Part shown: in pieces, positions 24,150-28,594 of the stretch | Layout: the number at the start of each line of letters is the position of its first letter | How positions within the stretch are numbered: the stretch's first letter is position 1 | Origin: Lama glama | Taxonomy: Eukaryota | Direction of reading: 5' to 3' | DNA: 64,000 nt | Assembly (NCBI GenBank): GCA_028534125.1 | Contig: CM052821.1 | Coordinates: 18,476,001-18,540,000, forward strand | The notes under the pieces: generated by a model | The model's input: only the letters and a program-made list of their open reading frames with translations | The model's database searches: none | What the model was told of the DNA's origin: nothing | Program-made: the position numbers and the translations under genes

Positions 24150-26040
24150 AGAGTTATGCTCATTCATCTTGGGCCACAACAGAATTAAATTTAAATAAAC
24201 TTCATAAATAACAGAAAGCATCTCTAGATAATCCCCAAATATGAGGAAACTAACACTTCTAAGCAACCCACAGATCAAGAAGAAATCAAAGGGAAAATCA
24301 AAACATATTTTAAAATAAATGAAATTGAAAATACAAAATATCAAAATTTGTAAGATGCAGTGAAATTTATGGAACTAAAACACCTATATTAGAAAAGAAC
24401 AAAGGTTTGAAATTAATGACTTCAGTTTCTGGCTTAAGAAACTAGGGAAAAAAGAGTAAATAAACCCCAAAGTAAGGAGAAGAGAGTGTATGATCAAGAT
24501 CAGAGTGAAAAATAATGAAACAGAGAACAAAAAATAGAGACGATCAATTAAATAAAAAACTTATTCATGAGAAAAATCAATGCAACTGATAAAACTCTAA
24601 CAAGTGAGATCAGAAAAAGAGAGAAGACACAAACTACCAGTATCAGGAATAAGAGAAAGTGACACTACAAATCCTACTAATATTAAAAGAAAAACAAATA
24701 CTATGAATGACTTTATGCCAATGAACACAATGACCGTGATGAAATGTACACATTTTGTGAACAGTGTGAGCTACCACAGCTCATTCAAGATAGTGAACAG
24801 CCCTGTATCTATTAAGAAATTAAATCTACTTTTAAAAGCGATCCATTATAGAAGTTGAATAAAAATCCTTTCCACAAAGAGAAGTGTAGGACCAGATGAT
24901 TTCACTGGTGAATTATACCAAACATTTAAGCAAGATATAATACCTATTTACAACAAACCCTTCTAGAAAACTGAATGGGAGGAAATACTTCCCAACTTGT
25001 TCTCTGAGGCCAGCATTACTCTGACACCTAAACCAGGCAAAGCTAGTAATGAAAACTGAAGACCATACCACTCATAACCATAGATGTAAAAATTCTTAAC
25101 AAAACTTCAGCAAGTTGAATATGACAATATATAAAAAGGATAATAGCCACACCAGTCAGAATGTTCATCATTCAAAAATCCACAAACAATAAATGCTGTA
25201 GAGGGTTTGGAGAAAAGGGAACCCTCTTACACTGTTGGTGGGAATGCAGTTTGGTACAGCCATTGTAGAAAACAGCATGGAGATTCCTCAAAAGACTGAA
25301 AACAGACTTACCATATGATCCAGCAATCCCACTCCTGGGCATATATTCACAAGGAATCTTAATTTAAAAATATACCTGCACCCCAGAGTTCACAGTAGCA
25401 CTATTTACAATAGCCAAGCACATGGAAGAAACCTAAGTGTCCATCAACAGATGACTGAATAAAGAAGTTGTGGTATATTTATGCAATGGAATGCTTCTCA
25501 GCCATAAAAAATAATAAAATGATGCCATTTGCAGCAACATGGATCGCCCCGAAGAATGTCATTCTAAGTGAAGTAAGCCAGAAAGAGAAAGAAAAAATAC
25601 CATATGATATCACTAATACGTGGAATTTAAAAAAAAAAGACAAGCTTATTTACAAAACAGAAACAGACTCACAGACATAGAAAACAAACTTATGGTTACC
25701 ATGGGGGAAGAGGGTGGGAAGGGACAAATTGGGAGCTTGAGATTTGCAGATACTGACTGGTATATATATATAATAAATAAGTTTATACTGTATAGCACAG
25801 GGAATTATATTTGATATCTTGTAGTAGCTTACAGTGAAAAAGAATATCAAGTGAATATATGTATATTCATATATGACTGAAGCACTGTGCTGTACACCAG
25901 AAATTGATACAACATTGTAAACTGACTATATTTCAATAAAAAAAATACAACAACAAAAAAACAGGAGAAAGTCAAAAAAAAAAAAAAAGAGTGTAATAGC
26001 TCAGGATCAAGTAGGGTATATCCCAGGAGTACAGGTGGAA
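24150..26040 (+). mobile_element. Old L1 ORF2 relic, interrupted by a young L1 at 25148-25985
   Basis: GGACCAGATGATTTCACTGGTGAATTATACCAAACATTTAAG (GPDGFTGEFYQTFK motif); resumes at 26001 with HDQVGFIPGMQG-like GGATCAAGTAGGGTATATCCCAGGAGTACAGG. Confidence 0.88.
25148..25985 (+). mobile_element. Young camelid-type L1, ORF2 C-terminus plus 3' UTR and poly(A)
   Basis: MWYIYAME...MPFAATW...ILSEVSQ ORF2 C-terminus; ACAGACATAGAAAACAAACTTATGGTTACC; AATAAA followed by an A tail. Confidence 0.95.
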
Positions 26041-26726
26041 GAAGAGCAAGGTGGCTCATGTGCCTAGATTGAATGAGCTGGGAAAGTGAGCTGAGATTTG
26101 AGATGTAAAGGGAACTAGATCATGAGGGCCAGAGCGTATATTCCAACCCACCTGGACTAATTGGTTCTAATGGCCCTGAACTCAACAGGCAACACTAACG
26201 TTGAGAATTTTAGACTCCCTTACAGGCAGACAGGGGAAGATGTGGGGGGAGAATGAATACCACAAGAGAGAACTGTCAACCTCACTGTAAGGACTTGTAT
26301 TTTTAACCTGGGAAGCCATTACAGGGTTCTGAGCAGAGAAGTGATATATTATCAGTTGGTTGTGTTTTAACAATCTATTCTGTTTAGAAGATATTTTAGT
26401 AGAGTAAGGTTGGAATAGTAATATGTAAATCAAAGTATTTTGTAAATTATAAACAAGTCAAATATTAATAAATGAAATATTGCAATAACTTAGTCATTTT
26501 CTTAGCCATTTCTTGGTGCACCATTCCTGATATGCTGCTCTATATATACTTCTTATAAAGAATAGTCTTTGGGCTGTCCTGCCCCTGGGGCCCTTTGATT
26601 AAGTATTCAGAGGCTTTTACTCCCTGATAGGCAGGGTTAACACCACTACTCAGCCCAGCAGTAGTTTTGGAAAATGGACTATCACCCTTCTGCATCCCCA
26701 TAAGATTATGGGAATAAAGTTTCTGA

Positions 26727-27288
26727 GGGGGGGAATGAGACAGGAGGGAAGGGGTCAGGGCACAGCCATTCAAGAAGTGATACAGCAATTAATACCAAAA
26801 TGTTGTAAGATTCAACTCCCAGTAGGCACTGAGGATCAAGATGGAAGGAGACATGACTTCCAGTAGACCTTGTGCTTCATTATGCGCTCATTGTAATATA
26901 TTAGCATGATAAATAACATGCCCACAGGCACCATGACAGTTCCAAGGCTAACCACAAAAGGTCAAATAGTGGGTGATGGTCCAATTCCTGGGAATCCCAG
27001 CCCCTTTCCCAGGATAGTTGGAATGGTCCTCCCACTTGTTAGCATATGAAGCTACCAAGCCCATAAAAACTAGCAACACTGTGCTTCCCTCATGCCTCGT
27101 GGCTGCCTCTCTGGCTCCCTCGTCTTCAGAGACAGCCTGTACTCTGTCTATGGAGTGTGTATCTACTTTTCTTTAACCTGAGCACCCAACCCCCACACCT
27201 TGTGGCCCTTCTCTTGCCTTCTGAAACACCCTGCATTCTATGTAGTATGTATCTCTCTAAATAAATCTATCTTTACTCAAAAAAAAAA
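26727..27288 (+). mobile_element. ERV1 (MER41-like) LTR retrocopy: PPT remnant, U3-R, poly(A); no U5
   Basis: G7AA then TG start at 26736; CATTGTAATATATTAGCAT and GGCACCATGACAGTTCCAAGGCT ERV1-LTR motifs; CATAAAA TATA-like; AATAAA 27260-27265; A10 at 27279-27288; TSD AAAGTTTCTGA at 26716-26726 and 27286-27296. Confidence 0.85.
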
Positions 27289-28594
27289 GTTTCTGATAAA
27301 AGACATTTTAGTAGGGAGGGCTCTCAGAGGAACGTGGGAACCTTGCTTGGTTGTGGGATGATCACTGAAGCACAATGGAGTTCACTAAACCCTTTTATTA
27401 CACATCCCCTCAGTTTTATTGTCAGAAACAAAATGTCATGCTAAGTGGTAGAACCCTAGAATAATATGGCGTTCCTACTGTCATGTGCCTGATCCTAACT
27501 TGATTGTGATACCAGAAATACACAATATTTAACCAAAGAGCTGGTCTCCCCTGAACCAGCCACCTGCAGTCATTGTTCTCCTGACTGATGACATCAGAAA
27601 GCCTTTGCATTTAACTCCGATTTGTGCCAGAGTAAGCCAGAAGAAGCTCCATCTATTACTGGGCACAACAGGGCACTAAGTTCCCAATGCTTAAAGATAC
27701 TGGAAATGATATTTATCTACAATAGCCAAAGACAACTTAAAGCTTCCAGAAAGTGAAGAACCAGAAAGACTGAGAAAAAAGAGCCAAGGTTATAACCAGG
27801 AAAATGGAACCTAAGGATCAAGTCCAAGATGTGAGGCACCAGTGTTTATTTAACCAGCTCACCTCCAGGAGAGTTGTAATCAGAACTGTTTTCAAGGCTG
27901 TGGCTACAGAATATGAAATAGAGTTTTCTTTTACAAAGGATTTGGAATACATTTGGGGGTAGGATGGCCGTTTGAGTGATTTTAAAAATGTACATAATCC
28001 AACACATGCCTAATTCAGCGTTCTATATCACAGTGATTTAACTTGTTTTTAATTTAATTTAATTTAACTCCTAAAAGAACAATACAATGATGAGAGTACT
28101 AGGTCCCTTTGCAGGTGGACAGGAAAGTTTTTTGGAGGAAGTAAATATCAGGTAGAAAATTATCAACCTCATCCACACACAAAGTCAATTCTGCTGACAT
28201 GTAACTTTTTAACAGGTAGACTCTGCAGTTTCTATTTAGCACACAGGCTTTCCACCTGGGAAAGTCCAGCCTGGTGATGACATTTCAGTCTAGCTCACAA
28301 AGTTACCGATTGGCTGCTGTGTGCTTCAGAGTAATGTTTTCTAAAGCTGAACATTATTTGGAAAACAAAAGTGATGAGCCAACTAACCCACACATGTAAT
28401 ACTGAAATCTTAGGAGGAAACTACTGCCTACAAAACACATACACACATGTACACAACTTTTTAATATTTTTGAGTTTCACCAAGTTCCATTAAATGGCTT
28501 TGGAATATTTGAAATGTATAAAAAAAATTCTGAGAAATTTTTGTTTCAATAATTTTCCTACAGAAATGTTTGGGAAATAAAAATGTTTTATTTT

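What the first reader, a model, noticed from the sequence alone, without database searches (positions are those of the whole stretch)
26716..27296. ERV1 LTR RNA apparently retroposed by L1, starting at the polypurine tract
Seen: TSD AAAGTTTCTGA, then GGGGGGGAA (PPT-like), TG-start LTR, AATAAA, 13 nt, A10, and the TSD again. U5 and a terminal CA are absent, and the left flank AT/AAAG resembles an L1 endonuclease site. Established: integrase-made solo LTRs end in CA with 4-6 bp TSDs and carry no PPT or poly(A); L1-mobilised ERV RNAs are known for HERV-W. Inference: this is a target-primed copy of a camelid ERV1 transcript. A 5' end at the PPT could mean a preferred truncation point or a short LTR-derived SINE-like family; I know of no description of either in camelids.
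Basis: partly seen in the sequence, partly recalled or inferred. Interest (0 to 1): 0.7.

Follow-up and report, generated by a model that had tools for sequence, protein, structure and literature searches.

The report
L1-copied retrovirus RNAs, mostly tiny R-only
This is a 5'-cut, poly(A)-tailed copy of an old endogenous retrovirus RNA, likely pasted in by LINE-1, and over half of the tailed copies examined in this genome are ~170-base pieces of the LTR's R segment alone, probably made from prematurely ended viral transcripts.

Summary
The mechanism is right, the boundary is wrong. The element starts at 26572, not at the polypurine tract: 164 more bases of ERV internal sequence precede the LTR, and the 'left TSD' lies inside them. 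U5 is absent and the tail sits at the family's R end; true LTRs run ~130 nt further and end in TCA. The genome holds 132 exact R-end+poly(A) sites against 363 R-end+U5 sites. Of 100 tailed copies examined, 1 starts at the PPT, but 58 start in one ~27-nt window at the R start, where full-length retrocopies also begin; 43 of 58 have TSDs (control 5 of 600). These R-only elements come from several LTR subtypes, so no single SINE master. Spliced, unspliced, leader-terminated and ERV-host chimeric retrocopies also occur. The source is a class I ERV with a Lys PBS. It works like HERV-W processed pseudogenes; the dominant R-only class was not found in ten paper searches, but Repbase/Dfam and Pavlicek 2002 could not be checked.

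The parts
26572..27288 (+). whole element: 5'-truncated poly(A)-tailed ERV copy (internal 3' end, PPT, U3, R, A10)
   Evidence: BLASTN to other copies from 26572 on
26572..26726 (+).
   Evidence: 82-86% identity to 26 copies that hold it; 215 candidates genome-wide
   Evidence: same letters in four related organisms
26727..26735 (+). polypurine tract
   Evidence: same tract precedes the 3' LTR in tailed and U5-bearing copies
26736..27100 (+). U3
   Evidence: LTR start matches solo LTR starts; end inferred from the R start
27062..27069 (+). TATA-like box
   Evidence: motif at this place; in 25 solo-LTR measurements it lies 21-30 nt before the R-start motif; function inferred
27101..27278 (+). 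R segment; its first bases are where R-only and full-length retrocopies begin
27260..27265 (+). AATAAA poly(A) signal
   Evidence: sequence; 13 nt before the tail
27279..27288 (+). poly(A) tail (A10) in place of U5
   Evidence: LTRs continue with U5 here; 132 tailed vs 363 U5 sites
27286..27296 (+). 3' flank / start of the target site
   Evidence: unique flank, shared by four related organisms
26550..26559 (+). weak candidate for a decayed left TSD (9 of 10 with 27291-27300); below my threshold

Best explanation
The element is a 5'-truncated, poly(A)-tailed copy of a class I endogenous retrovirus RNA (26572-27288), likely inserted by LINE-1 target-primed reverse transcription, and it belongs to a set of at least 132 tailed copies dominated by ~170-nt R-only pieces that were probably copied from short transcripts polyadenylated inside the LTR that started them. 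Shown: boundaries, missing U5, tail at the R end, long A-rich TSDs on most copies, one shared 5' end, GT-AG splice junctions in longer copies. Inferred: L1 as the enzyme; the shared 5' end as the transcription start; premature polyadenylation (5' LTR or solo LTR) as the source of R-only copies. They are independent dead-end copies from several LTR subtypes, not the progeny of one master.
For: Tail exactly at the R end in 132 exact sites, reversed-pattern control 0. TSDs of 9-20 nt in 60 of 97 copies tested vs 5 of 600 mismatched pairs; commonest insertion context TT/AAAA, then TT/AAGA and TC/AAAA, whereas solo LTRs have 4-nt TSDs (24 of 32). 58 of 100 5' ends fall at positions 344-370 of a natural solo LTR, the same place where full-length R-U5...U3-R-poly(A) copies begin, 21-30 nt after a TATA-like box. 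Seven copies join one donor to four AG acceptors, and one joins that donor to host exons: RNA intermediates. Four R-start copies end in poly(A) inside the leader (L258, L268, L270, L278); recombination between R repeats cannot make these, so early-ended 5' LTR transcripts were substrates. Under the short-RNA model the truncation rate is nearly even (1.2, 1.8, 2.0 per 1000 nt in R, U3, internal), under recombination it must fall about ninefold. Incomplete 5' LTR poly(A) suppression and short polyadenylated transcripts are documented for foamy virus and MoMLV (PMC3694450, passages).
Against: The window copy itself has no TSD that passes my test, and only 1 of 7 copies truncated in the internal region does. 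R subtype spectrum of R-only copies does not differ from that of long retrocopies (p=0.37) but differs from solo LTRs (p=0.012): fits recombination or 5'-LTR termination, and speaks against solo LTRs as proportional sources. LTR recombination in this family went nearly to completion (70 of 76 U5-bearing sites are solo-type), so R-R collapse is plausible. A falling truncation rate with a full-length peak is normal for L1 (recalled), which weakens the rate argument. No RNA data were examined. The leader-terminated copies lack AATAAA, so they show early 3' ends, not use of the LTR signal.
Confidence: 0.6

Rival explanations
1. Same L1 origin, but R-only elements are 'solo-R' products: full-length retrocopies (R-U5-internal-U3-R-poly(A)) collapsed later by recombination between their two ~170-nt R repeats, as solo LTRs arise from proviruses.
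For: Full-length precursors exist (15 distinct R-start vs 8 full-U3 copies among 28 leader-holding loci analysed); same 5' end, tail and TSD are predicted; subtype spectrum matches long retrocopies; solo LTRs vastly outnumber proviruses.
Against: Needs ~95% collapse on 170-nt homology and very few truncations in the leader/U5 (1 of 100 there); cannot make the four leader-terminated copies.
Confidence: 0.28
2. R-only elements form during insertion: L1 RT copies the 3' R, jumps to the identical 5' R of the same RNA and runs off the cap.
For: Explains the exact 5' end, the TSDs and the subtype spectrum; L1 template switching is known (recalled).
Against: Would have to happen in more than half of events; L1 RT lacks RNase H to free the cDNA (recalled); no direct sign in the data.
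Confidence: 0.07
3. For the window copy only: the 11-mer is a real target duplication in a compound event (internal priming at the similar site plus a second, poly(A)-primed copy joined in register), so the first reader's TSD is half right.
For: The exact match is rare by chance (1 of 3133), both changes from the common form go toward the flank, and no other TSD passes.
Confidence: 0.15
4. R-only elements are a true SINE family amplified from one or a few R-only masters.
For: Uniform size and ends; mild clustering on a tree (37 changes vs 44.2 shuffled, 7 of 500).
Against: They fall into at least four indel subtypes, three shared with full LTRs and the fourth with long retrocopies, and interleave with them; R lacks the U3 promoter.
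Confidence: 0.05

Closest known systems
HERV-W processed pseudogenes (PMC5537654, PMC5016936; passages read)
   Same: R-U5 5' ends, U3-R 3' ends, poly(A), TT/AAAA sites, long TSDs, spliced forms; among copies with internal sequence tailed ones outnumber proviral ones about 2:1 (18 vs 8 here; 135 vs 65 in HERV-W).
   Different: Non-primate host; Lys(CTT) PBS; R ~170 nt vs 70-90 nt; a dominant R-only class, not among the categories in the passages read (provirus, pseudoelement, truncated, solo LTR; PMC3031232). Kinship to ERV-W is recalled from gag and env-tail motifs only, not tested.
Solo LTRs of class I ERVs
   Same: Same LTR sequence; 70 of 76 U5-bearing sites examined are of this kind.
   Different: They have U5, end TCA, have 4-nt TSDs, and lack PPT, internal sequence and tail.
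SINEs and SVA/SINE-R (recalled)
   Same: Short, tailed, TSD-flanked, L1-dependent; SINE-R is ERV-LTR derived.
   Different: R-only copies have no internal promoter shown and no single master lineage; they are processed-pseudogene-like.
Prematurely polyadenylated 5' LTR transcripts of foamy virus and MoMLV (PMC3694450; passages read)
   Same: RNA from the cap to the poly(A) site within the first LTR.
   Different: There seen as RNA in cells; here inferred from genomic fossils.

Membership tests
L1-made ERV processed pseudogene | 3' LTR is U3-R, no U5 | tested here: met
L1-made ERV processed pseudogene | poly(A) tail at the R end after AATAAA | tested here: met
L1-made ERV processed pseudogene | 5-20 nt TSD at an L1 endonuclease-type site | tested here: inconclusive
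   window copy: none passes; family: 60 of 97 vs 5 of 600 control
L1-made ERV processed pseudogene | 5' end at R start or 5'-truncated, colinear with viral mRNA | tested here: met
   window truncated at -164; full-length and spliced copies in family
L1-made ERV processed pseudogene | empty orthologous site with one copy of the TSD | not testable with these tools
   all four organisms laid carry the insertion; no outgroup genome held
Integrase-made solo LTR | U5 and terminal CA with 4-6 nt TSD | tested here: not met
Class I (gamma-like, ERV1) ERV | Gag MA, CCHC, RNase H, integrase with MLV-type C-terminus in a two-LTR copy | tested here: met
   L065: Pfam Gag_MA (below cut-off), zf-CCHC, RNase_H, rve, MLVIN_C; gammaretrovirus pol hits
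ERV-W group | PBS for Trp or Arg tRNA | tested here: not met
   PBS matches tRNA-Lys(CTT); PBS type has weak taxonomic weight (PMC6995185)
ERV-W group | pol phylogeny with HERV-W/HERV9 | not tested
   no named ERV-W reference came up
SINE | descent from self-propagating masters with own diagnostic changes | tested here: not met
   R-only copies interleave with LTR subtypes
SINE | internal Pol III promoter from tRNA/7SL/5S | not tested
   sequence is wholly LTR R by alignment; no promoter scan run
   1 of 100

The most novel reading that the evidence does not exclude
A camelid-lineage class I ERV seeded hundreds of SINE-like R-only retroposons from short capped RNAs polyadenylated within their own LTR: an undescribed Pol II, LTR-derived class of L1 cargo, inside a second, independent HERV-W-scale case of L1 mobilising ERV RNA, whose copies fossilise the virus's start site, poly(A) sites, splice sites and premature termination.
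Probability: 0.4. Interest if true: 0.72.

Novelty: new variant of a known kind. Interest (0 to 1): 0.55.

Why it matters
The HERV-W papers read call it the sole human ERV group mobilised by L1 and say the determinants are unknown; even New World monkey ERV-W lacks such copies (PMC5537654, PMC6995185). A second large case in another mammalian order gives a comparison for what makes an ERV RNA L1 cargo. The R-only class would be a genomic record of failed 5' LTR poly(A) suppression (or a measure of recombination on 170-nt repeats), scatters poly(A) signals through the genome, and is easily mis-scored as broken LTRs in solo-LTR counts. The window copy alone is ordinary.

Tried and rejected
PPT-started family: rejected (1 of 100). 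11-mer as TSD: rejected as best reading, kept as a minor rival. Natural A-run at the LTR end: rejected. Single-master SINE: rejected. Dating the 11-mer from related organisms: no help, all four read as the window. Naming the ERV group by protein search: no informative names. C8:5890500-5893500 as a spliced two-LTR provirus: the spacer does not match internal sequence. A look for a collapsed allele of a full-length retrocopy in related organisms gave no data, so that test is open. Paper searches that found no description of tailed or R-only LTR copies in camelids or other non-primates: (one search was for background); the recalled library name 'ALTR2' returned only unrelated papers. Earlier-findings look-ups returned nothing. 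Pavlicek 2002, Costas 2002 and Furger 2001 were not seen; no supplements were read.

Full report
Setting.

Observation. A search with the LTR part gave 6740 candidates, 40 scored, 30 loci kept. Of the 29 other loci, 21 continue past the window's A-run into about 130 nt of U5 ending TCA, and 8 stop at the same point with a tail or A-rich flank. So U5 is truly missing and the tail marks the R end. But 7 of those 8 also carry internal sequence in front of the LTR, and the window matches it without a break back to 26572. The 'left TSD' is therefore inside the element. At that place 19 of 30 other loci read AAAATCTCTGA, none the window's form. The identity with the 3' flank is rare by chance (1 of 3133) but is most simply two transitions in a copy 12-19% away from its relatives; a compound insertion remains a minor rival. 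No TSD at the true 5' end passes my test. Contigs of four related organisms cross both junctions with 0-3 differences, so the insertion is shared and the 11-mer is unchanged in them.

The source. A search with the internal piece gave 215 candidates. Leaving out the window and three contig fragments, 18 of 26 loci are tailed (one is a duplicate) and 8 carry U5. L065 and L068 are two-LTR proviruses of about 6 kb. L065 holds broken gag and pol remnants (Pfam Gag_MA weak, zf-CCHC, RNase_H, rve, MLVIN_C) and its integrase is nearest to gammaretrovirus-like pol; env is only a remnant in some copies. The PBS matches tRNA-Lys(CTT) genes of this genome. A likeness of the matrix and env tail to HERV-W/HERV9 is recalled, not tested.

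Census. Exact 27-letter patterns found 132 R-end+poly(A) sites and 363 R-end+U5 sites, reversed controls 0. The patterns hit 2 of 21 tailed and 10 of 21 solo copies found independently, so real numbers are roughly two- to tenfold higher. I examined the first 100 of the 132 (contigs C1-C29; the window is one of them). Mapped on natural solo LTR L004, their 5' ends are: 58 at positions 344-370, 15 further inside R, 12 inside U3, 1 at the PPT/U3 start, 7 in the internal 3' region, 5 longer than 1 kb, 2 long and interrupted. A strict TSD test was met by 60 of 97 (three long copies not tested), 43 of 58 in the main class, against 5 of 600 mismatched pairs. TSDs are 9-20 nt; the commonest contexts are TT/AAAA, TT/AAGA and TC/AAAA. 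Of 76 of the 363 U5 sites examined, 70 are solo-type LTRs, 2 proviral LTRs, 1 the 5' end of a full-length retrocopy, 1 an R-only copy cleaved 6 nt later (L178, 13-nt TSD) and 2 unresolved; solo LTRs have 4-nt TSDs in 24 of 32 scorable cases.

The shared 5' end. Full-length tailed copies L035, L036, L042, L082, L274, L237 and L240 start at the same position, 21-30 nt after a TATA-like box; I infer the transcription start. The main class is thus R alone plus poly(A), mostly 150-186 nt. It falls into several indel subtypes that also occur in full LTRs or long retrocopies, so these are independent copies, not one SINE lineage.

RNA signatures. Seven copies (L035, L036, L042, L082, L126, L131, L274) join one leader donor (unspliced copies read on GTGAG) to four different AG acceptors near the env end. 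A leader search (92 candidates, 30 loci, 28 analysed) gave 15 distinct copies starting at R against 8 with full U3; one was truncated, three loci unresolved, one a duplicate. Of the 15, four are spliced full-length, six are unspliced and run off the fetched flank (3' ends not seen), four end in poly(A) inside the leader without AATAAA (TSD clear in three, weak in L258), and one (L273) is spliced from the same donor into four host exons whose parent lies on C17 with AG/GT boundaries.

Age. 5' R vs 3' R identity in six full-length copies is 82-95%; TSD pairs differ at 48 of 844 positions (biased low); LTR pairs of L065 and L068 are 98% and 88% alike. Tens of millions of years is inferred; no rate was calibrated.

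Mechanism. L1 target-primed reverse transcription explains tail, TSDs, site preference, truncations and spliced forms (established signature, PMC5537654; about 0.93 for the window copy). For the R-only class I favour short RNAs ended at the poly(A) signal of the LTR that started them (0.6): early-ended 5' LTR RNAs were demonstrably copied, the truncation rate is even under this model, and incomplete suppression of the 5' poly(A) site is documented in foamy virus and MoMLV (PMC3694450). Later recombination between the two R repeats of full-length copies stays a serious rival (0.28): precursors exist, solo-LTR formation was nearly complete, and the subtype spectrum of R-only copies matches long retrocopies (p=0.37) rather than solo LTRs (p=0.012; the two patterns may sample subtypes unevenly).

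Known or new. It works like HERV-W processed pseudogenes (passages of PMC5537654, PMC5016936, PMC3031232, PMC6995185) and is not shown to be an ERV-W. Passages of two camel repeat surveys (PMC8605555, PMC6675863) mention no tailed LTR copies and report MIRs as nearly the only SINEs. Nine searches found no description of this family or of an R-only class. Against novelty: Repbase and Dfam could not be searched, most subscription papers are missing, and PMC5016936 notes that the commonest length class in the Pavlicek HERV-W set was 0-0.5 kb, which may include R-only copies; that paper was not seen. No supplements were read.

Verdict. The window copy is an ordinary 5'-truncated ERV retrocopy with a coincidental internal match. 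The family behind it is a large non-primate parallel to HERV-W with an unexpected dominant R-only class: new variant of a known kind, interest 0.55.

Noticed in passing
L273 (G000:C16:12894313-12897638, - strand); parent exons L288-L291 on C17: Chimeric retrocopy: ERV R-U5-leader spliced into four host exons, with poly(A) and TSD; the host part is F5/8 type C-like, and BTBD9 is recalled only. Fossil of an intronic ERV driving a truncated host transcript.
   Followed up: partly
L258, L268, L270, L278: R-start copies ending in poly(A) within the leader without AATAAA; two end within 2 nt of each other about 45 nt after the donor.
   Followed up: partly
L045, L050, L105, L010, L019 vs most copies: A ~400-nt env-tail segment ending at an AG is present in some copies and absent from most, including U5-bearing proviruses; splice-like or deletion origin not resolved.
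   Followed up: no
L034/L061, L041, L048, L049: Several copies have inverted LTR or internal pieces next to them (possible twin priming or later rearrangement).
   Followed up: no
L099 (G000:C8:5890500-5893500): Two full LTRs 550 nt apart, the first with a PPT, spacer not ERV-like.
   Followed up: partly
window 24200-26050: What looks like an L1 3' end with poly(A) (about 25150-25990) inside an older L1 ORF2 remnant; read by eye, L1 identity recalled.
   Followed up: no
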